Of a DNA stretch of 64,000 nt, positions 33,658-44,525 are shown in pieces. The notes under the pieces were generated by a model. The model was not told the DNA's origin. It was given only the letters and a program-made list of their open reading frames with translations, and ran no database searches. The DNA is taken from the IMG/VR virus record IMGVR_UViG_3300036861_000806, positions 1-64,000 of that record. One strand, written 5' to 3'. This DNA is from a virus. Position numbers and translations under genes: made by a program. Every line of letters starts with the position of its first letter. Position 1 is the first letter of the stretch.

Positions 33658-35553
33658 TCACGAGTCGCTCTCCCCAAAGACAAGACCCGTGCTGCACCGA
33701 CAATTGCTTGCGATGATGCCCTCTGCCATAATGAATCCGTCGACCGTCTGGAGATCATACACATGCCCATGCCACGCGTACCGATTGAGCGCGACCACCT
33801 GATCACGCTGTATTCGCGCAGTCTCACCTACGAGGAGATCGCGCGCGAGTTGCATACCAGCATTGCTGTCGTCTACAGTCGGTTGCGCGAGTGGGGATTG
33901 ATTGGCTCGACCCCACGACACGGCGGGTCGTGGCGACGCGATATTGACGAGGCCTCGCTCATTACGCGCTACCACAGCGGGGAATCCGAGAAGGCCGTCG
34001 CGGACTCGCTGGGCATCAGTAGGACTGCGGTACGCGCTCGACTCCTTGCGGCGGGAGTGCGCCCCCGGACCCAAAGCGAATCCGAGACGCTGAAGTGGCT
34101 CGGACTCAAGCGTGATCGGGCCGCCGTCGAGCGCCAGTGCGCCAGCGCGTGGGCGGCGGCCCGCGGACGCGTCCGATCGTTGTCGGAGTTGCGCGCCTCG
34201 GCGCGAAGTCGTGCTCAGCGTCTCTCTCATGTGGGCCGTTACGAAGAGGCGATCCGCATTGCGTTGCATCGTCTCGGCATGGCCGCCACGCCGCAATATC
34301 AAGTTGGCCCCTACAATCTCGACTTGGCATTGCGCCCATCGCGCGTCGCCGTGGAGATCATCACGGCCTATCTCGACGTGGCGAAGTCCGTCTGCCCGAA
34401 GCGCATCCACTACCTGTTCGATCGGAGCTGGGCCGTTCTGATCATCTGGTGCCCAGCGAAACAGACGCCCGTGATACCGGACGCGCTCGCTCAGTACATC
34501 GTCGCCTTCACGCAGGCTGCTCGCAGCGATCCAGCCGCGCGGCGTCAGTATGGGGTGATTCGGTGTGATGGTCAGCCGGTACCCGCGTCGCGTTTCCAGC
34601 GTTACGACGGGACCCGAGTAGACGGCTTTTAATCCTCGGACGGCACGCGCAACGATGTGCGTGTCCGGGATAAAACAATTGGGGTGGAGTGGCGGTCCCG
34701 TGATGGCACGCCCATCCGATGTCCAGGGTTCGTCGAGCCCGACCTCGACACCGTCGAGTTTTTCACAGGAAAATTCGAGTAAATCATCGTCCGTGACGAT
34801 CCATACCCGCCGCGTCTCTTCACGATCAAGAAGCCCTTGATCGGCCGCCGCCTCCCAGAGCCGCTGTTGTCCTTCGTTCGTCACCGCGACCGTTTCCGTG
34901 CGGGCCAGAGTTTCCGCCCTCGCCTTCAGCTGCGCCCCCGCATATCGCTCCGTCCGCCGCGCAACATCCTCCTCACCGACCCCCTGCGCGACGAGCCGCT
35001 CACGGAATCGCTCGACCGCTGTGACCTGTCGCGAATGCAGCCCAATCACCTCGCGGAGCTCCCGCGCGAGCCAGCGGACCGGGCGCCCCTCGGCCTGCGA
35101 CGCGACGACCAGCGAGCGAACGCCCTCACGCGTTGACGCGGAGATCTCCGTCACCAGCGCGCCAGCGTGCTGATTCGCCCACGCCACGGCCGCCGGGTTG
35201 GTCCGCGCGAAGTCAACCGCGAACCCTGGAGTGCCCCGGAGCGCTTCGCGTCCAGCCTCGGCGCCGACGCCTAGGGCCGCGCCGATGACGGGCCGGATCT
35301 TCGCGCGAAGCGCTTCGGGGAGTCGGTCGAGCAGCAGCGCGGCCTCGACGCGCGAGATCTCGCCAGTCTTCAGCGCCGCTTCAAGGGCGTCGAGGTCGAC
35401 TTGACCGTTCAGCGTGGCGATGGCCGAGAGGAAGGCGCGCCGGGCGGCGGGCTCCAAGCGGGCGGCGAGGCGCGTGACGAGGGGGCGGCGGGCTTTGAGG
35501 ACTGACTGGGCGCCGACGGAACGGAGAAACGCGCCGACGAATTGCGGATGCAC
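33658..35553 (-). CDS. Minor head/head morphogenesis protein (Mu gpF/SPP1 gp7-like) containing an intein
   Basis: RAETLARTE, RRVWIVT.D...C..LDG, PPLHPN|intein|CRC. Confidence 0.88.
   Translation of the reverse strand: MHPQFVGAFLRSVGAQSVLKARRPLVTRLAARLEPAARRAFLSAIATLNGQVDLDALEAALKTGEISRVEAALLLDRLPEALRAKIRPVIGAALGVGAEAGREALRGTPGFAVDFARTNPAAVAWANQHAGALVTEISASTREGVRSLVVASQAEGRPVRWLARELREVIGLHSRQVTAVERFRERLVAQGVGEEDVARRTERYAGAQLKARAETLARTETVAVTNEGQQRLWEAAADQGLLDREETRRVWIVTDDDLLEFSCEKLDGVEVGLDEPWTSDGRAITGPPLHPNCFIPDTHIVARAVRGLKAVYSGPVVTLETRRGYRLTITPNHPILTPRGWIAASSLREGDDVLSERVRYHGRLFRWAPDDQNGPAPIEQVVDALRADGLRHVEIGRDDLHGDARWAQCQVEIVGANLILRRGGHAETMQRNADRLFVTAHMRETLSTTSRRGAQLRQRSDASAGRRPRAGALALDGGPITLESEPLQRLGFALGPGAHSRRKESSAYRSPTDAQRVRDGLLGFPAVVARNERGLVNIASPRPAVSWGRANQSPLAQPTVDDSNAGMQLARDLLVGETARIQRDQVVALNRYAWHGHVYDLQTVDGFIMAEGIIASNCRCSTGLVFGESDS
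33703..34677 (-). mobile_element. Intein (325 aa) in the minor head protein
   Basis: Begins CFIPDTHI; block B LTITPNHPILT; ends HVYDLQT...GIIASN followed by Cys; interrupts the conserved HPNCRC motif. Confidence 0.88.
33766..34632 (+). CDS. HTH-repeat plus Vsr/DUF559-like endonuclease encoded antisense within the intein
   Basis: Two HTH units (LYSRSLTYEEIARELHTS; YHSGESEKAVADSLGIS), then YE..I...L, PQYQVGPYNLDLAL...VAVEI, W.VLIIW. Confidence 0.75.
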   Translation, partial: PMPRVPIERDHLITLYSRSLTYEEIARELHTSIAVVYSRLREWGLIGSTPRHGGSWRRDIDEASLITRYHSGESEKAVADSLGISRTAVRARLLAAGVRPRTQSESETLKWLGLKRDRAAVERQCASAWAAARGRVRSLSELRASARSRAQRLSHVGRYEEAIRIALHRLGMAATPQYQVGPYNLDLALRPSRVAVEIITAYLDVAKSVCPKRIHYLFDRSWAVLIIWCPAKQTPVIPDALAQYIVAFTQAARSDPAARRQYGVIRCDGQPVPASRFQRYDGTRVDGF

Positions 35554-37265: not shown

Positions 37266-37691
37266 TCACGGGTCCGCCTCGGGCGGCAAGCCGAAGAATC
37301 CGGGCTCGATGGCGTCTGGCGCGACGAGAAGAGCATTGCCGTTCCACTCGCCCGGTATCCAGGGCGATGCCCGGCGCAGATCCGAGAATCGTCCTTCACC
37401 GGCCAGCTCCACGACACGCGAGACCTTCGCTGCCCAGCCGTCTGCGCGCCATCGAAGGGACTGTACGGCGAGCGCCCGCACGTGGGGATCATGGCCGTTT
37501 TGAGCGGCGGCGAGGATTTCGATGCCGATGCCGCCCGCGTCTGGCGTTGGCAACGGGACGTTCGTCACGATTCGGTCACCAACTTCGCCGGCCTGTGGCG
37601 CTGTTCGGCCGTGGTATACGGCGGAGGTTCGTCCTTCATTGGCCACGATTCGAACAAGGTCTGGAACCGCGCGGACCCGCACGGCGCTCAT
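37266..37691 (-). CDS. Hypothetical protein
   Basis: 141-aa ORF coupled to the upstream gene. Confidence 0.5.
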   Translation of the reverse strand: MSAVRVRAVPDLVRIVANEGRTSAVYHGRTAPQAGEVGDRIVTNVPLPTPDAGGIGIEILAAAQNGHDPHVRALAVQSLRWRADGWAAKVSRVVELAGEGRFSDLRRASPWIPGEWNGNALLVAPDAIEPGFFGLPPEADP

Positions 37692-38113
37692 AGCGGCAGC
37701 TCCGAGCCGTGAAGTAGGTCGACTAGGAGTTGGAGGTCTGCACCGAGATACGTTCGCGGCAGCGTGTGCAGACGCCCGCGCCGGATGGCCTGCTCGTAGG
37801 TGAGGCCCAGGAGCCTGGCCTCATGCGCGATCAGTTCGCGGACTTCCTCGGTGCTCAGCGGGTTCCCCTGCTCCAGCGACCGAGTGAGTGTCGTGGCGAG
37901 TTGGCGCCCGGTTCCGTCCTTCGTCCGTTTCAGCGGCATGCGGCGCTGCACAAGCCGATGCGCCGCCGCAATGATCCCCTCTGGCGTCGCCTTGCACCCC
38001 GCAAGGTTCTTATCGAGTTTCTTACGGAAGTCGCGCCGCTTCGAGAGCCAGACGAAGAATGCCAGGAGCTTGAGCTTCGCCTCGGCTGATCGCTTGCGGC
38101 GCTTCCTCTTCAT
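37688..38113 (-). CDS. Basic hypothetical protein downstream of the RAMP-like gene
   Basis: ATG 38113 with AAGGAGG RBS. Confidence 0.55.
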   Translation of the reverse strand: MKRKRRKRSAEAKLKLLAFFVWLSKRRDFRKKLDKNLAGCKATPEGIIAAAHRLVQRRMPLKRTKDGTGRQLATTLTRSLEQGNPLSTEEVRELIAHEARLLGLTYEQAIRRGRLHTLPRTYLGADLQLLVDLLHGSELPL

Positions 38114-38141: not shown

Positions 38142-38762
38142 TTAGCGCTTGGTACCGCTCCGCTTCGGTTTCGGCTCATCGCCGCCGTTTTCTTTCGAGA
38201 CCGACCACTCCGTCACGACGAAGCGCCCATATTCCGGGCGCCACGCGCCGGTGCCAACGAGCATCCCAGCCTGCTCGGTCGCCTGCCGCACGGCCTCAGG
38301 CGGCACGGCATCATCCACGACGACGAGGCGCACGCGCAGCAGCCAGCCCGCTTTGAGTGCGGGCCGACGGATGATCGCCATCTTGCCCTTGGGGCCCGGC
38401 GGCTGACGACCCGGAACCTGATGCAAGTAATCGCGCTCGGCGACCATCTTTCCATTCTCCGTCACAAACCGCCCCGGCTCACGCACAAACAGCACGGCGG
38501 CGAGCCTCTGTCGAAGTGGCTTACGATTGAACTTGAGCCCGGCCGCGCTGGCGCCTTCGAGGATGGTCTTCTTGACGGTCCACTGGGGCCAGTAGAGCCC
38601 CGCGTCGTCAGCGTAGGCTCGCTTCTCAGCCAGCTTCGCCCGCTGTTCGTCGGACATGTCGCCGGAGGACTTGCCGCTTCGAAAGTTGGCCATCTCCTCG
38701 TCGGGCATTCGGTTGAACAGCATATCCGCCAGTCCTTTAAACGTCGCGTCGATCGTGTACAT
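38142..38762 (-). CDS. Stand-alone Cas7/RAMP-superfamily-like RNA-binding protein (206 aa)
   Basis: ATG 38762 with GGAGG RBS; N-terminal strand YTIDATFKGLADMLFNR, LYWPQWTVKKTILEGA (equivalent to IPGSSLKG), C-terminal Gly-rich loop AGMLVGTGAWRPEYGRF. Confidence 0.7.
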   Translation of the reverse strand: MYTIDATFKGLADMLFNRMPDEEMANFRSGKSSGDMSDEQRAKLAEKRAYADDAGLYWPQWTVKKTILEGASAAGLKFNRKPLRQRLAAVLFVREPGRFVTENGKMVAERDYLHQVPGRQPPGPKGKMAIIRRPALKAGWLLRVRLVVVDDAVPPEAVRQATEQAGMLVGTGAWRPEYGRFVVTEWSVSKENGGDEPKPKRSGTKR

Positions 38763-38787
38763 GCTCGCCTCCAGGGATTGAGGGTTC

Positions 38788-39031
38788 GCATCGCTGTGCT
38801 TTACTCCGCATCGCTTGGCACGGCTCGGCTGTGCTAAGCTGCGCTTCACCACGCTTTGCTGCGGCTGTTTCATCGCTTTGCTTTGCTACGCCATGCCTCG
38901 CTCGGCTCAACTCAGCCGCGCCTGGCTACGCTCCGGCTGTTTCATCGCTCTGCCTTGCTTTGCTGAGCTTGGCTTCGCTGGGCTAGACTGCGCTAGGCTT
39001 AACTCCGCCCAGCTGCGCTAGGCTGCGCTAC
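38788..39031 (-). repeat. Phased pentamer array (NN+DGY)x44 in three units; putative guide-like ncRNA
   Basis: On the minus strand 17, 12 and 15 consecutive pentamers (38947-39031, 38875-38934, 38788-38862) separated by identical GATGAAACAGCC linkers; the central G is invariant. Confidence 0.9.
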
Positions 39032-39351
39032 GACTCGTCCTGCCTCCTTTCCCTCCGCTCGCCGACGCAGGTAATGCCGCCAGGATCGGCGCCGACGGCA
39101 TCGCGACTTGCACGAATCGGCGGAACTCCGCCTTGTCGTTCGCCAGCTCGCGCGCCAACACGAGGAAGTTGGTTTCCCGGGCGCTCTCGGTCTGCTTGCT
39201 CCGCGTCCACGCCGACAGCGCTGTCGCGGCGATTCGCGCCTTGCCGATGTCGAGGCTTGTGTGTTCAGACAGCGAGGAACTTGCGCAGCGCGGAGATAGA
39301 CTCCGTGCCGAGCAGATCGAGATCAGTTTGAGGTTGACGCATTTCGATCAT
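39018..39351 (-). pseudogene. Frameshifted helical protein gene upstream of the array
   Basis: AGGAG RBS, MIEMRQPQTDLDLLGTESISALRKFL, stop; the coding-like frame continues shifted (LSEHTSLDIGKARIAA...) to TAG 39018. Confidence 0.5.
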
Positions 39352-39596
39352 AGGTGATGTTCTCCTTTCAGGGATTGAGGGAGAGTTGGGGCTTTACCGC
39401 TCGAACACCGGTTCGACTTCGAGCATTTCGTCGTCGTCTCGCAGGACCCGGACACGTTTTGCCCCGAGGCATAGCGGGCAGTCGACGTGCTCCCGTTGAA
39501 GCTGCGCCTCCGTGCAGCCAGGCACCATGCACCCTTGGTGCATGATGATCATAGGGCATGGCCCGACCCAGCCGACCCCGCCGACGCCGACCGCGC

Positions 39597-40692: not shown

Positions 40693-41613
40693 TCACGACG
40701 CGACCCGGCGAATGACTCGAAACGTCTCGCGCGTGCTCTCGGGCGACGAACCGGCGACATGGATGCCGGGGGCCGCCCCAGCTCGGCGCATAGCCGTCCA
40801 GCAAAAGAGCAAGGACATCAGCGAATCGTATTTCCCGCGCGACGGGTCCGGGTACGCCACCACATCCTCACGGAGCGCGCAGTACGCACACGCACAGAGC
40901 GCGTCGTGCGACTTCAGCGGGGCGCGCGTGTCGTACGCGTCATCCATACAGAGTGCCCACAGCCCACGTTCCATCTCCACGGCGAGCCCCTCCAGTTCCG
41001 GCTGCTTATTCGCCCCCGTCGTCACGTGATCGAACGGGATCGACGGATCCACTGTCTGGGTCAGTGCGGAGATCGACCCCTGCGTGGCGTTGCTCTCCAG
41101 CATGAGCGTCGCGAACTGATGCCGCGCGTGGGCGTTGGCCAGCATGTGCGCGGTGTGCAGGTAGGGGCTCGAGCCCGCCCCTGCGGCCTGATTCGCCCAT
41201 AGATTGCACGCCACGATCACCCGCGTCTGCCGCGACCGCTCCTCGCGCGCGGCCGGGGTCATGTCGTCGAGCGGGACATCTGCCATGAGAACCGATCGCC
41301 CGAGCGCGGCGACAGTGAGAGCGTTCCCTGGTCGGGTCTCACCAGCGGGATCGACGCCACCGTATCGCCGCGCCAGCGGCACCCCGTCCGTCTCTCCGAG
41401 GAGCTGGGCCACTGTCACCCCGTAGCGGAGGAACTTCTCGATCCCCCGCGCGAACAGCCGCTCCCCGTCCTCCATCGGCTGCTGCTGCATTCCGCGCCGG
41501 AACATCCGCGGGCTGTCCCGCTGCACCTGACGGAGCGAGTCTTGATTCCAGCGCGCCTCCCACAGCGGGAGGGCGAACGACTGCCCCGGCTCGAAGAGTG
41601 GTCCATGCGTCAT
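40693..41613 (-). CDS. Terminase large subunit, C-terminal nuclease part
   Basis: PLWEARW...F....QQQP, GGVDPA, LESNA, YP...KYD. Confidence 0.8.
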   Translation of the reverse strand: MTHGPLFEPGQSFALPLWEARWNQDSLRQVQRDSPRMFRRGMQQQPMEDGERLFARGIEKFLRYGVTVAQLLGETDGVPLARRYGGVDPAGETRPGNALTVAALGRSVLMADVPLDDMTPAAREERSRQTRVIVACNLWANQAAGAGSSPYLHTAHMLANAHARHQFATLMLESNATQGSISALTQTVDPSIPFDHVTTGANKQPELEGLAVEMERGLWALCMDDAYDTRAPLKSHDALCACAYCALREDVVAYPDPSRGKYDSLMSLLFCWTAMRRAGAAPGIHVAGSSPESTRETFRVIRRVAS

Positions 41614-41643
41614 CGTTCTCTCATCACGTCCCGGAAGACTCCA

Positions 41644-42492
41644 TCATCGTCGGCTCCGATCACGCATCGTCGTCTGACTCTCGACCCGCGCCTCCAACTG
41701 CGCACAGTCATCGCTCACGCGCACGATCAGCCAGCGCCAGCGCTCGCCGCCCTCGGCCATTAACTTGGCATAAGCGTCTTGTTGGTGATGACGGAATCCC
41801 ACCATGAGTACGCGCGTCTGGGGTTGGAGCCGCTGAAGCCAGAAGCCAATAGACTCGTACACCTTGAGGCGCATACCGGGATTATAAATCGTGTTGTGCG
41901 CCGTAACCGGATCGTCGAACACGAGGATATCGTGCGACGCGCCGGCCCGGATGCCGATCACCGGGCTCGCCTCGAGCGTCGGATCGCGCCCAGGCGACGT
42001 GCGCTTGACGAAGATCTTATGATCAGCCCACGGCTCGCCGGGCGCTGGGACGCACTGCGGAAACACATCGCGGAATTCTGGCATTCTCCGATCGTAGGCC
42101 AAGCTCGACGGGTCGCCGCTCTCGATATACCGCTTGACCGTCATCACGCGCTTGACCGACTCGTCATCCGACCCCGACACGATCCGCGCGCGCAGATTGG
42201 GATCGCGCCCAATCTCCCACAGTAATCGTCCCTCCACGATTACGAGACTTTTCCCCCACTGGACCGGCCCAAGAATGCCGGCGTAATACCCCCGCGTCCA
42301 GCAGTCATCCACGAAGTCCCCAAGTAGCCGATGGAAGAGCGAGTAGTCAACCGGACGCGCCCGGTCATCACGCAGCACGAACGGCACGAACGTGTGAAAG
42401 TCCACCCGGGATCGGAGCACGAGCTCCTGGTACGCGGCGACGCCGGCTCGAAGCATGACATCTTCAGGCGTCGTTTGAGGATTCGTGACCAT
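41644..42492 (-). CDS. Terminase large subunit, N-terminal ATPase part
   Basis: Walker A-like GPVQWGKS, Walker B ILVFDD, VGFRHHQQD. Confidence 0.85.
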   Translation of the reverse strand: MVTNPQTTPEDVMLRAGVAAYQELVLRSRVDFHTFVPFVLRDDRARPVDYSLFHRLLGDFVDDCWTRGYYAGILGPVQWGKSLVIVEGRLLWEIGRDPNLRARIVSGSDDESVKRVMTVKRYIESGDPSSLAYDRRMPEFRDVFPQCVPAPGEPWADHKIFVKRTSPGRDPTLEASPVIGIRAGASHDILVFDDPVTAHNTIYNPGMRLKVYESIGFWLQRLQPQTRVLMVGFRHHQQDAYAKLMAEGGERWRWLIVRVSDDCAQLEARVESQTTMRDRSRR

Positions 42493-43279
42493 CGGTCCCT
42501 GACGTGAGCGCCGGCGTCCACGGGGTCGCGACGTCGGGCGATGGATGCATCGTGAGTCGCACATAGCGATCGATCGCGCGCCGCCGATCATCCTCGGGGA
42601 TCTCCCGCAGTTGATCCTCGATCGTCACTGTCACATTCACCCCCGCCCCCCCGGCCGGCATCAGATTCCGGAGCCTTGCATACAGCGCGATGGCCGCCAG
42701 CTTGTCGTGCGCTGACACCTCGAGGTTGGGCCCATAGGGGCCCTGTGTCTTGCGGAGCGTCTTGATGGCCGCCGCGATATGATCGGGCAGGTCGGCAACC
42801 GTCCCGGCCTCGAGCGCGGCGAGGGCGGCATCGATCTCGCGCGCCCCGGCGAACGCGATCGCCCCGGTCTCTGCGGCGAGGCGCTCTACAGTCGCCCCGC
42901 TGGCCTCGAGCGTGCGCTCCATCGCCTCCTGCACATCCGGCAGGCGCAGCAGTCGGCTGCCGATGACCATGAGGCTCGGATTGCCTCCGCGGTAACCGGC
43001 CGCGCGCGCCGACTCCATTCCGTTGCCAGCCGTTGGCCCGACGAGATACGCCCGGATGAATCGTCGTTTGCGCACCGCCGCCCGCGTGCTCTGCCGGCTG
43101 CGCTGCGGCGCACTGTCCCGAAGCGGCGAGAGTGCATGGCCCGCTTTCGCTCGCTTCAACGCGGCGTCAATCTCCTCGATCTGCGCCACCGCGTGGGCGC
43201 GGAGCTTCTTCAGATCCTCTGGCGCCAGCCGCGCGATCTGCTCGCGCTCGGCCCATTGGGCGTCAGACTCTTGCGCCAA
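42464..43279 (-). CDS. Terminase small subunit
   Basis: RFIRAYL..NGMESARAAGY...GSRLL..PDVQ; HDKLAAI. Confidence 0.85.
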   Translation of the reverse strand: MAQESDAQWAEREQIARLAPEDLKKLRAHAVAQIEEIDAALKRAKAGHALSPLRDSAPQRSRQSTRAAVRKRRFIRAYLVGPTAGNGMESARAAGYRGGNPSLMVIGSRLLRLPDVQEAMERTLEASGATVERLAAETGAIAFAGAREIDAALAALEAGTVADLPDHIAAAIKTLRKTQGPYGPNLEVSAHDKLAAIALYARLRNLMPAGGAGVNVTVTIEDQLREIPEDDRRRAIDRYVRLTMHPSPDVATPWTPALTSGTDGHESSNDA

Positions 43280-43496: not shown

Positions 43497-44525
43497 TCAC
43501 CGGGGGCCATGGAGTACCTCGTCACGATAGACATTGTAGATCAGGTCATCGGCGAAGGCGCGATCGGGCTCGGCCCTGAGATCGGAGCTCGCGCTGCTGG
43601 CGTAGAGGCGCGCCAAGCCCTGCTCAATCATCGTGTAGACGTCGTGTCGTTCGCACTGCCCCGTCTTGATCTGCACGAGTAGCGCCCGATCCGGACGCGG
43701 AAACGTAATCCATCCGGTGTCGAGGACCTCAACCGCTTCCTCGTTCACCCGAACCGCATGAGAGAGCGCCTTCCAGTCGACGCCGCCGGCTAGATGAGCC
43801 TTCTTCGCGCGCTCGCCGTACTCGGCTAGAACCTTGCCGTACGTCTCGCGGGCGTACTTCACCGTCGCGCCGAGCGGCAACTTGCGACCGCAGACATGCA
43901 GATGCGTGACCGTCGTGCCGTTGACCCCAGGCAGGTCGATCAGTTCGATGAGCTGCGACTGCTCCAGCGATAGCAGGCTCTCGCAGTCGACGACCAGCGC
44001 GCCGATAGCGACTGCGTGCTCAGAGAGTCGATCGCTCACCGGCAGGGCATTCAGGAGATCGACGACACGCCGAACGGCGTCCATCCGAGAGCCCTTGATC
44101 CCATATCGCGCTGCCTGCTTCCGGGCATACCCCACGAAGGCGTTGACGTTGCGAGACAGGAGCCGATCGCGGCCGTCGAGAATCTGCTGCATGACGCGCT
44201 GGCCGAGCGCCGTTGGGCACTCAGCCCGTTTGTTGCCGAACGCGAACAGCACGTCCAACGCCCACGTCTGACCATCCATGAGATCGTGGAGGAAGCGATC
44301 CAGGCTGAATTGCTCCACGTCCACGTCGTCCTGGCTGTTCCGCTCAAACGTGGCCTTCTTGCGGCTGGTGACGATTGCCTTGTCGTAGGAGCCGAGGACG
44401 ATCTCCCGAGCCGTGGGCACGTAGATGCGCTTGATGTCCAGGTCAGAGTCGGGCGTGTCGGTGCCGTACAGATGGGAACCAAACTTCACTTCCAGCAGCA
44501 CCTTGCCCGTTACGGCGCGCCCCAT
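43497..44525 (-). CDS. Pol-beta superfamily nucleotidyltransferase (RlaP-like)
   Basis: FGSHLYGTDTPDSDLDIK; DWKALSHAVR..., IKTG. Confidence 0.85.
   Translation of the reverse strand: MGRAVTGKVLLEVKFGSHLYGTDTPDSDLDIKRIYVPTAREIVLGSYDKAIVTSRKKATFERNSQDDVDVEQFSLDRFLHDLMDGQTWALDVLFAFGNKRAECPTALGQRVMQQILDGRDRLLSRNVNAFVGYARKQAARYGIKGSRMDAVRRVVDLLNALPVSDRLSEHAVAIGALVVDCESLLSLEQSQLIELIDLPGVNGTTVTHLHVCGRKLPLGATVKYARETYGKVLAEYGERAKKAHLAGGVDWKALSHAVRVNEEAVEVLDTGWITFPRPDRALLVQIKTGQCERHDVYTMIEQGLARLYASSASSDLRAEPDRAFADDLIYNVYRDEVLHGPR

What the first reader, a model, noticed from the sequence alone, without database searches (positions are those of the whole stretch)
38142..39031. Stand-alone Cas7/RAMP-like gene coupled to a phased 5-nt repeat array: candidate non-CRISPR RNA-guided system
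Seen: a 206-aa gene between terminase and portal, and directly upstream on the same strand 244 nt made of 44 perfectly phased pentamers NN+DGY (AGC x30, GGC x6, AGT x4, TGC x3, GGT x1), in three units of 17, 12 and 15 pentamers separated by an identical 12-nt linker. There is no cas1/cas2, nuclease or canonical CRISPR repeat in the window. Established: Cas7-type RAMPs polymerise along guide RNA with a fixed nucleotide period and carry a C-terminal Gly-rich loop; this protein shows the corresponding motifs (LYWPQWTVKK, VGTGAWRPEYGRF). Inference: each protein subunit grips a constant triplet and displays the variable dinucleotide, so each unit is a programmable guide, possibly used against competing phages or for gene silencing. 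I recall a recent report of viral RAMP proteins with alternating GGY/NN RNAs (VIPR-type); that recall is unverified, and this array would be an AGC-dominated variant.
Basis: partly seen in the sequence, partly recalled or inferred. Interest (0 to 1): 0.96.

Follow-up and report, generated by a model that had tools for sequence, protein, structure and literature searches.

The report
Phage VIPR locus with AGC-type guides
This is a real copy of the VIPR system described in 2026, in which a small CRISPR-like protein and five-letter-repeat guide RNAs let phages silence rival DNA; here it sits in a complete uncultured phage genome, so it is a new example of a known kind and not a new system.

Summary
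On the minus strand, 39031→38788 holds 44 in-phase pentamers NN+[A/G/T]G[C/T] in units of 17, 12 and 15. Two identical 12-nt linkers separate the units, and the array lies directly upstream of a 206-aa gene (38762→38142).

The protein is a Vipr. A profile of its family matches the solved SUSP1 Vipr (PDB 36pp) at E=2e-24, and hhalign gives 99.5% probability. The AlphaFold model (pLDDT 95) aligns to Csm3/Cas7 at Z≈13. Most homologous loci carry same-strand pentamer arrays next to the gene.

The system is described in four 2026 bioRxiv preprints, and this scan has flagged VIPR-like loci in at least 336 other genomes.

Three points are added here:
- The gene is not stand-alone. A conserved ~95-aa all-helical accessory gene precedes the array. 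It is broken by a frameshift in this window and is unlike the ORF downstream of SUSP1 vipr, presumed to be vap1.
- The units lack the ~40-nt structured tail of type II vrRNAs.
- The two G1-reading residues of SUSP1 Vipr are replaced (H17→N17, family-wide; D177→A173). This fits the A-dominant first triplet letter, but the tree-aware test had too little power.

No target was found for any of the three guides. Verdict: new member of a known kind, of modest interest.

The parts
38142..38762 (-). vipr gene: 206-aa Vipr (minimal Cas7-like RAMP). G-loop is G170-F181 (GTGAWRPEYGRF). The predicted thumb hairpin lies at about residues 112-136.
   Evidence: ORF and RBS. Profile hit to PDB 36pp_D SUSP1 Vipr at E=2.1e-24. 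hhalign probability 99.5%, E=6e-23. AlphaFold pLDDT 95.2. Z=13.2 to Csm3/Cas7. Single copy in the genome.
38947..39031 (-). vrRNA unit 1: 17 pentamers NN+DGY. Guide dinucleotides: GT GC CT GC TG GG TA CT GC CT CC GA CA TC AA AA AG.
38935..38946 (-). 12-nt linker GATGAAACAGCC. It shifts the pentamer phase by 2 nt and is a candidate short 3' handle or unit boundary.
   Evidence: Unit boundaries of the two closest loci, L017 and L018, share GAAAC/GAACC...RCC.
38875..38934 (-). vrRNA unit 2: 12 pentamers. Guide: GG GT CA GC TG TG CG GA AT GT AA AA.
38863..38874 (-). Second, identical 12-nt linker GATGAAACAGCC.
38788..38862 (-). vrRNA unit 3: 15 pentamers. Guide: GC AA GT GA GC TT AC CG CG CA GA GG AA AC GA. 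It is followed by GAACC, which resembles the linkers.
39018..39351 (-). Conserved small all-helical accessory gene (vap-like, type not assignable). In this window it is split by a frameshift near 39265-39270. The N part runs from ATG 39351 to TGA 39267-39265. The C part is open in the +1 frame down to TAG 39020-39018. Its last 14 nt overlap unit 1.
   Evidence: Three-frame translation and alignment to intact homologues in L017 and L018. tblastn finds the gene next to vipr on the same strand in at least 35 loci. It is intact in 30 distinct loci. There is no Pfam, PHROG or PDB match. The AlphaFold model of the L018 homologue has pLDDT 89 and 4-5 helices.
38772..38784 (-). Copy 2 of the 13-nt direct repeat CCCTCAATCCCTG, between the array end and the vipr RBS.
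   Evidence: Only two copies exist in the 91-kb genome. The repeat is not found in homologous loci.
39369..39381 (-). Copy 1 of the 13-nt direct repeat CCCTCAATCCCTG, just before the RBS of the accessory gene. The two copies bracket the accessory gene plus the array.

Best explanation
The locus is a VIPR (Viral Interference Programmable Repeat) system in a complete 91-kb uncultured phage genome. Its gene order is a small helical accessory gene, three vrRNA units, then vipr, all on the minus strand between the terminase and portal genes.

By homology with the solved SUSP1 system, the likely mechanism is as follows. Vipr protomers polymerise on each transcript, one protomer per pentamer. Each fixed triplet (here A/G-G-C/U) is flipped into a pocket formed by the thumb and G-loop of adjacent protomers. 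The variable dinucleotides are displayed to pair with double-stranded DNA that reads NNxNNx..., skipping one base per step. The bound filament then blocks transcription of a competing mobile element.

Shown here:
- the array;
- homology and fold of the protein;
- co-occurrence of protein, array and accessory gene across relatives;
- conservation of the residues that contact G2 and Y3 in SUSP1 (R133, W174, R175);
- replacement of both G1-reading residues (H17→N17, D177→A173).

Inferred:
- transcription and processing of the three units;
- RNP assembly;
- DNA rather than RNA targeting;
- validity of the one-base skip rule in this clade;
- that the Asp→Ala change explains the preference for A at triplet position 1.

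The targets are unknown.
For: Protein homology: the family profile A2 hits 'SUSP1 Vipr protein' 36pp_D at E=2.1e-24 over the full length. The single sequence hits it at E=4.6e-4. hhalign gives 99.5% probability.

Fold: pLDDT is 95. Csm3/Cas7 chains are the top hits, with Foldseek E=2e-6 and VIA Z=13.2.

Array: 44 phased pentamers, which form the only such runs in the genome. The array RNA has no excess secondary structure (z=-0.04), as expected for a protein-coated single strand.

Co-occurrence: most homologous loci carry same-strand arrays that abut the gene. GGT-type arrays match only on the gene's strand, which fixes the orientation.

Positive control: the same run-finder recovers the four published SUSP1 vrRNAs.

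Accessory gene: it is conserved next to vipr in at least 35 loci.

Context: the genome is a complete virus with terminal repeats and has no Cas1 and no CRISPR array.

Published mechanism. Published non-GGY units.

As the paper reports for other VIPR systems, there is no self-target in the phage's own genome.
Against: - No target was found for any guide under the NNx rule. Eight exact sub-pattern scans of IMG/VR gave nothing. Neither did the phage's own genome, the 79 loci, or 401 genomes searched with up to 3 mismatches. The rule is therefore untested for this clade.
- In SUSP1, GGY>AGY substitution of the guide was among the perturbations that abolished silencing. An AGC guide therefore needs a protein with different specificity, which is inferred and not shown.
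- The link between the G-loop residue and triplet position 1 is not universal, and it is statistically unsupported once the tree is taken into account.
- The accessory gene is frameshifted in this window.
- There is no structured 3' tail like that of type II vrRNAs.
- No sigma-70-like promoter was detected, and there are no expression data.
Confidence: 0.88

Rival explanations
1. The locus is a genuine VIPR module that is impaired or decaying in this genome. The accessory gene is frameshifted, so only Vipr plus guides, or nothing, is functional.
For: The accessory reading frame is broken near 39265-39270, while all 30 other distinct homologues are intact. The large terminase gene nearby also carries one in-frame TGA.
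Against: The vipr ORF is intact and fully conserved at family-invariant positions. The array is perfectly phased. The genome is complete with terminal repeats. In SUSP1 the accessory gene only enhances activity, and vrRNA plus vipr suffice. A single-base assembly error would give the same picture.
Confidence: 0.2
2. The RNP works by a different rule from SUSP1. It might use a different number of skipped bases, or target RNA rather than DNA, because the fixed triplet, tail and accessory gene all differ from type II.
For: No NNx target was found. The unit architecture and accessory gene differ from SUSP1. The closest solved CRISPR folds, Csm3 and type VII Cas7, belong to RNA-targeting complexes.
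Against: Skip rules 0, 2 and 3 gave no better matches than skip 1 or shuffled guides. The paper reports NNx hits for types III and V as well. The thumb and G-loop residues that set the geometry are conserved.
Confidence: 0.1
3. The pentamer tract is not a guide array. It would instead be translated leader sequence, or a simple satellite that lies next to the gene by chance, or it would be read from the opposite strand.
For: A 243-aa ORF (38873→38142) starts at the ATG inside linker 2 and runs through unit 3. AGC-type pentamers also give partial matches on the opposite strand because GC is self-complementary.
Against: A 5-nt period cannot hold a reading frame. All homologues start at the MY... 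methionine, which has its own RBS. In many relatives the arrays lie downstream of the gene. Arrays accompany the protein across a family whose members share as little as about 25% identity. GGT-type arrays match only on the gene's strand.
Confidence: 0.02

Closest known systems
VIPR systems (Vipr + vrRNA + vap), reference type II of Escherichia phage SUSP1 (NC_028808.2; PDB 36pp); bioRxiv 10.64898/2026.04.26.720920, 10.64898/2026.04.26.720927, 10.64898/2026.10.15.759431
   Same: - The Vipr protein is homologous (hhalign 99.5%).
- It has the minimal RAMP fold with a G-loop and a thumb.
- The vrRNA units sit on the same strand and alternate a fixed triplet with a variable dinucleotide, 12-17 repeats per unit against the published 9-16.
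- The genome is a phage genome with no cas genes and no CRISPR array.
- There is no self-target.
- The contacts to G2 and Y3 are conserved (R133, W174 and R175 correspond to SUSP1 R138, W178 and R179).
   Different: - The fixed triplet is A-dominant (AGC 68%, A at position 1 in 77%) rather than GGY.
- The G1-reading residues H17 and D177 are N17 and A173 here.
- The units are joined by a 12-nt linker instead of a ~40-nt conserved pseudoknot tail.
- The accessory gene is an unrelated ~95-aa helical protein placed upstream of the array. It is not similar to the 146-aa ORF downstream of SUSP1 vipr, presumed vap1.
- The locus sits in the packaging module, whereas in SUSP1 it lies next to the DNA ligase gene.
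Non-canonical VIPR arrays: YNNNG / NNNGG / NNNNG repeats and 'staggered' arrays (10.64898/2026.04.26.720920, methods and fig. S17-S18 legends); GAC/NN, CAC/NN, WGT/NN and TGH/NN clusters (10.64898/2026.10.21.760802)
   Same: In the paper's register the unit here is C-N-N-[A>G>T]-G, which is a YNNNG-type repeat. The units are compact and closely abutting, with no large tail.
   Different: An AGC-dominant unit is not named in the text of either paper. The figures and data tables were not available, so I cannot tell whether this clade is one of the seven published types.
Class 1 CRISPR backbone subunits Cas7/Csm3/Cmr4 (type III, type VII)
   Same: These are the best structural matches (Z 12-13 over about 165-170 residues). 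They share the RRM core, the thumb and the glycine-rich loop, and they polymerise on guide RNA with a fixed period.
   Different: - Sequence identity is only 10-14%.
- The period is 5 nt rather than 6 nt.
- There is no CRISPR repeat, no Cas6/Cas5/Cas10/Cas11 partner and no adaptation genes.
- The guide is non-contiguous.

Membership tests
VIPR system | Protein homologous to reference Vipr proteins | tested here: met
   Profile A2 against PDB 36pp_D SUSP1 Vipr gives E=2.1e-24 over the full length. The single sequence gives E=4.6e-4. hhalign gives probability 99.5%, E=6e-23, over 172 columns.
VIPR system | Minimal RAMP fold: single RRM core, glycine-rich loop and thumb, with no second RRM | tested here: met
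   The AlphaFold model has pLDDT 95.2 with a beta-alpha-beta-beta-alpha-beta core, a hairpin at residues 112-136 and a G-loop at 170-181. Foldseek gives probability 1.00 and VIA gives Z=13.2 to Csm3/Cas7. The protein is 206 aa, which leaves no room for a second RRM.
VIPR system | Adjacent tandem pentamer array with a conserved trinucleotide alternating with a hypervariable NN (at least 4 units) | tested here: met
   There are 44 phased pentamers in 3 units. The NN columns carry 1.89 and 1.97 bits, and the triplet columns carry 0.97, 0 and 0.51 bits.
VIPR system | Canonical GGY trinucleotide | tested here: not met
   Triplet position 1 is A in 34, G in 7 and T in 3 of 44 pentamers. The publications accept related consensus units such as YNNNG, so this excludes only the canonical subtype.
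VIPR system | Array co-occurs with the protein across relatives, on the gene's strand | tested here: met
   Among the 79 loci, 41 distinct proteins each have at least 10 adjacent pentamers. GGT-type arrays match only on the gene's strand.
VIPR system | Minimal locus without cas genes or a CRISPR array, in a viral genome | tested here: met
   There is no Cas1, CRISPR array or Rfam hit. The genome is a complete virus with terminal repeats, and the locus lies among packaging genes.
VIPR system | Accessory vap gene (one of vap1-6) | tested here: inconclusive
   A conserved ~95-aa accessory gene is present, though frameshifted in this window. It is unlike the ORF downstream of SUSP1 vipr, presumed vap1 (hhalign probability 0.15%). 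The sequences of vap2-6 were not available for comparison.
VIPR system | vrRNAs are expressed and co-purify with Vipr | not testable with these tools
   This needs small-RNA sequencing and a pull-down experiment.
VIPR system | Targets double-stranded DNA by the one-base skip (NNx) rule; natural targets lie in rival mobile elements | tested here: inconclusive
   No match of 80% or more was found in the phage's own genome, the 79 loci or 401 genomes, and no exact sub-pattern hit was found in IMG/VR. Exact-match scans are insensitive.
VIPR type II (SUSP1 / P. fulva clade) | ~100-nt vrRNAs, each ending in an invariant structured tail, plus the vap1 accessory gene | tested here: not met
   SUSP1 units are each followed by a conserved ~40-nt tail. 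The window has 12-nt linkers and no excess RNA structure. The accessory gene is not similar to the ORF downstream of SUSP1 vipr, presumed vap1.
CRISPR-Cas class 1 (Cas7 family) | Cas7 encoded within a cas operon next to a CRISPR repeat-spacer array | tested here: not met
   There is no CRISPR array and no Cas1 in the complete 91-kb genome. The neighbouring genes are phage packaging genes.

The most novel reading that the evidence does not exclude
The fixed triplet acts as a specificity handle that has been re-tuned in this clade. On this reading, loss of the G-loop aspartate (SUSP1 D177 → A173 here) switches Vipr from reading G-G-Y to preferring A-G-Y. That would create an RNP orthogonal to GGY-type VIPR systems, so that decoy or hijacking vrRNAs from rival elements cannot load onto it and its own guides cannot be captured by rival Vipr proteins.
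Probability: 0.2. Interest if true: 0.55.

Novelty: new member of a known kind. Interest (0 to 1): 0.3.

Why it matters
The finding adds a well-resolved natural example of a VIPR system outside the characterised type II. It comes from a complete environmental phage genome and has three distinguishing features:
- an A-dominant fixed triplet;
- very compact guide units without a structured tail;
- a previously unnamed small helical accessory family (at least 167 protein clusters) that travels with this Vipr clade.

If the change in the G-loop residue does set triplet specificity, it would give a natural route to orthogonal VIPR effectors for multiplexed programmable DNA binding. It would also point to an arms race over guide loading between phages and satellites.

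As it stands, the locus confirms published biology and does not extend it.

Tried and rejected
1. Target hunt. Eight exact NNx sub-pattern scans of IMG/VR covering all three guides gave 0 hits. Mismatch-tolerant scans of the phage's own genome under skip 0-3 reached at most 65% NN match. Scans of the 79 fetched loci were no better than shuffled guides. Guide 3 with up to 3 mismatches found nothing in 401 genomes of the phylum of one homologue-bearing MAG. Sixty-six guides from relatives, scanned against all held DNA, also showed no signal above shuffles.

2. Host inference failed. The virus record has no relatives drawn, the window has no tRNA, and the portal protein is at most 33% identical to any cultured phage. 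The Vipr protein has no tblastn hit in GenBank phages.

3. Tree-aware covariation between the G-loop residue and triplet position 1 gave only about 4 independent contrasts, with p≈0.5. A distant clade keeps Asp yet has a relaxed position 1. I report this link as suggestive only.

4. Function of the accessory gene remains unknown. Pfam, PHROGs, a PDB profile search, Foldseek against the PDB and viral libraries, and the wide VIA search gave only generic helical matches. The Atlas gave a faint HTH lead.

5. The ORFs immediately downstream of vipr (37688-38113 and 37266-37691) are not conserved next to homologues and were rejected as parts of the system.

6. TGA recoding was rejected as an explanation for the in-frame stop in the large terminase gene.

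7. The 13-nt direct repeat is not conserved in relatives.

The DNA around the closest protein homologues (60-62% identity) could therefore not be examined.

Full report
**Observation.** The minus strand of 39031→38788 reads as 44 consecutive in-phase pentamers of the form NN+[A/G/T]G[C/T]. They fall into three units of 17, 12 and 15 pentamers. Two identical 12-nt linkers (GATGAAACAGCC) separate the units, and each linker shifts the pentamer phase by 2 nt. The two N columns carry 1.89 and 1.97 bits, and all 16 dinucleotides occur there. The G at triplet position 2 is invariant. The pentamer pattern occurs at 9.9% of positions on this strand. Runs of 12-17 therefore have probabilities of 1e-12 to 1e-17, and these three runs are the only runs of 6 or more in the whole 90,954-bp genome. 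Twenty-five nucleotides after the last pentamer, behind a GGAGG, a 206-aa ORF starts (38762→38142). The neighbours are the small and large terminase subunits upstream and the portal and MuF-like head protein downstream.

**What the protein is.** Pfam has no match, and PHROGs gives only an unannotated family. An exhaustive HMMER search finds 427 cluster representatives at E≤0.001. A profile of 113 of them hits one solved structure, 'SUSP1 Vipr protein' (PDB 36pp), at E=2.1e-24 over the full length. The single sequence hits the same chain at E=4.6e-4. hhalign against the SUSP1 gene product fetched from NC_028808.2 gives 99.5% probability. The AlphaFold model is confident (pLDDT 95.2). Its best structural matches are all CRISPR backbone subunits, namely Csm3, Cmr4 and type VII Cas7. 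Foldseek gives E down to 2e-6 with probability 1.00, and VIA-align gives Z=13.2 over about 169 residues. The protein is therefore a Vipr, the minimal RAMP described in bioRxiv 10.64898/2026.04.26.720920.

**Do relatives carry arrays?** I fetched 15 viral, 1 genomic and 63 metagenomic loci that encode homologues. Most of those with enough flanking DNA have runs of NNxG[C/T] pentamers on the gene's strand, directly upstream or downstream of the gene. Where the triplet ends in T (the GGT types), the pattern matches only on the gene's strand, which fixes the transcribed strand for the family. As a positive control, the same script recovers the four published vrRNAs of phage SUSP1, one upstream and three downstream of the gene. 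The association of protein and array is thus a property of the family and not a coincidence of this window.

**Mechanism, by homology.** The published work shows the following for SUSP1. One Vipr protomer binds each repeat. G1 is read by H17 and D177, and G2 by R138 and W178. Y3 sits in a pocket with R179. The NN bases pair with double-stranded DNA that skips every third base. Binding represses transcription, and the natural targets are satellites and rival prophages. In the window protein the G2 and Y3 contacts are conserved: R133, W174 and R175 correspond to R138, W178 and R179. Both G1 contacts differ: H17 is N17 and D177 is A173. N17 is nearly invariant across the family, so only the D177 position varies among relatives. 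This matches the array, where positions 2 and 3 of the triplet are strictly G and C/T, while position 1 is A in 77%, G in 16%, T in 7% and never C. In SUSP1, GGY>AGY guides were among the perturbations that abolished silencing, so a change in protein specificity is needed here.

Across 41 distinct relatives with arrays, the clades near the window that keep Asp have G at position 1 in at least 89% of pentamers. The window's clade carries Ala, Ser or Gly at that site, and a second clade (L009, L011) carries Gly. Both are A-dominant or relaxed at position 1. However, a distant Asp-bearing clade with xGT units is also relaxed. The tree allows only about four independent contrasts, with p≈0.5. The link is therefore suggestive and not demonstrated.

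The gene is not stand-alone. The region between the upstream genes and the array encodes a homologue of a ~95-aa protein. That protein lies next to vipr on the same strand in at least 35 of the fetched loci, either upstream in the order accessory-array-vipr as here, or downstream. The family has at least 167 cluster representatives, all unannotated. It is predicted to be a bundle of 4-5 helices (pLDDT 89). It has no convincing relative in Pfam, PHROGs or the PDB by sequence or by fold, and the Atlas gives only a faint HTH lead. It is not similar to the 146-aa ORF immediately downstream of SUSP1 vipr, presumed vap1 (hhalign probability 0.15%). In this window the gene is split. The N-terminal 28 codons (ATG 39351 to TGA 39267-39265) and the C-terminal ~80 codons (open to TAG 39020-39018) both align to the single intact proteins of L017 and L018, but they lie in different frames. 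This may be a real lesion or an assembly error. All 30 other distinct copies are intact.

**Differences from the characterised type II.** Each SUSP1 unit ends in a conserved ~40-nt tail, published as a pseudoknot. Here the units are joined by 12 nt, and the whole array RNA folds no better than shuffled sequence (z=-0.04). The unit boundaries in the two closest loci share GAAAC/GAACC...RCC with the window's linker, which may be a short handle or a processing signal. The paper mentions 'staggered' compact arrays and YNNNG-type repeats. A second group reports 21 clusters with non-canonical triplets. Figures and data tables were not available, so I cannot assign this locus to one of the seven published types. 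I can only say that it is not type II.

**Targets.** I converted the three guides to NNx patterns. The phage's own complete genome gave no match of 80% or more; the best was 65%, and skips of 0, 2 and 3 were no better. The 79 loci gave nothing above shuffled guides. Eight exact sub-pattern scans of IMG/VR gave no hit. Guide 3 with up to 3 mismatches found nothing in 401 bacterial genomes. Absence of self-targeting agrees with the paper. The remaining negative results are weak, because the exact-match scans are insensitive and the host is unknown. The targets remain unknown, and the skip rule is untested for this clade.

**Context and integrity.** The record is a complete virus genome with direct terminal repeats. 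It has one Vipr gene, no Cas1, no CRISPR array and no Rfam family in the window. Homologous loci also often lie next to the large terminase gene.

**Alternatives.** Translation of the tract is excluded for three reasons. A 5-nt period cannot hold a reading frame. The protein start is conserved across homologues. Arrays lie downstream of the gene in many relatives. Reading the array from the opposite strand is excluded at the family level.

**Verdict.** The system belongs to the VIPR class, published in 2026 (three preprints from the discovering laboratory and one independent preprint). This scan has already noted VIPR-like loci in at least 336 other genomes.

Noticed in passing
window 40693-42591 (-): The large terminase subunit is one continuous reading frame interrupted by a single in-frame TGA at 41646-41644, with an ATG 10 codons later. 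The genome otherwise uses TGA as its main stop codon (53 of 81 long ORFs), so recoding is unlikely. The possibilities are a split terminase, read-through or a sequencing error.
   Followed up: partly
window 38772-38784 and 39369-39381 (-): The 13-nt direct repeat CCCTCAATCCCTG occurs only twice in the 91-kb genome. Each copy lies just before the RBS of the accessory gene or of vipr, so the pair brackets the accessory gene plus the array. It may be a recombination scar or a shared leader or processing element. It is absent from homologous loci.
   Followed up: partly
window 33658-35553 (-): A MuF-like head morphogenesis protein (631 aa) gives a below-cutoff Pfam intein-splicing hit across residues 308-615, which suggests an intein insertion.
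   Followed up: no
window 43497-44525 (-): An RlaP-like / phrog_388 nucleotidyltransferase (E=1e-69) lies directly upstream of the small terminase gene.
   Followed up: no
window 37688-38113 (-): A 141-aa basic ORF with its own GGAGG lies 29 nt downstream of vipr. Only 78-80-aa partial homologues exist, covering about 55% of it, and it is not found next to other vipr genes.
   Followed up: partly
L001, L005, L007, L015 (viral contigs): VIPR loci of this family repeatedly sit within a few kb of the large terminase gene, on either side of it. This suggests a preferred insertion site at the edge of the packaging module.
   Followed up: partly
L057-L075 (metagenome contigs): A distant Vipr clade keeps the G-loop Asp-His pair but has NN-x-G-T units with a relaxed first triplet letter (G 24-78%, plus T and A). 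This runs against a simple rule that Asp reads G.
   Followed up: partly
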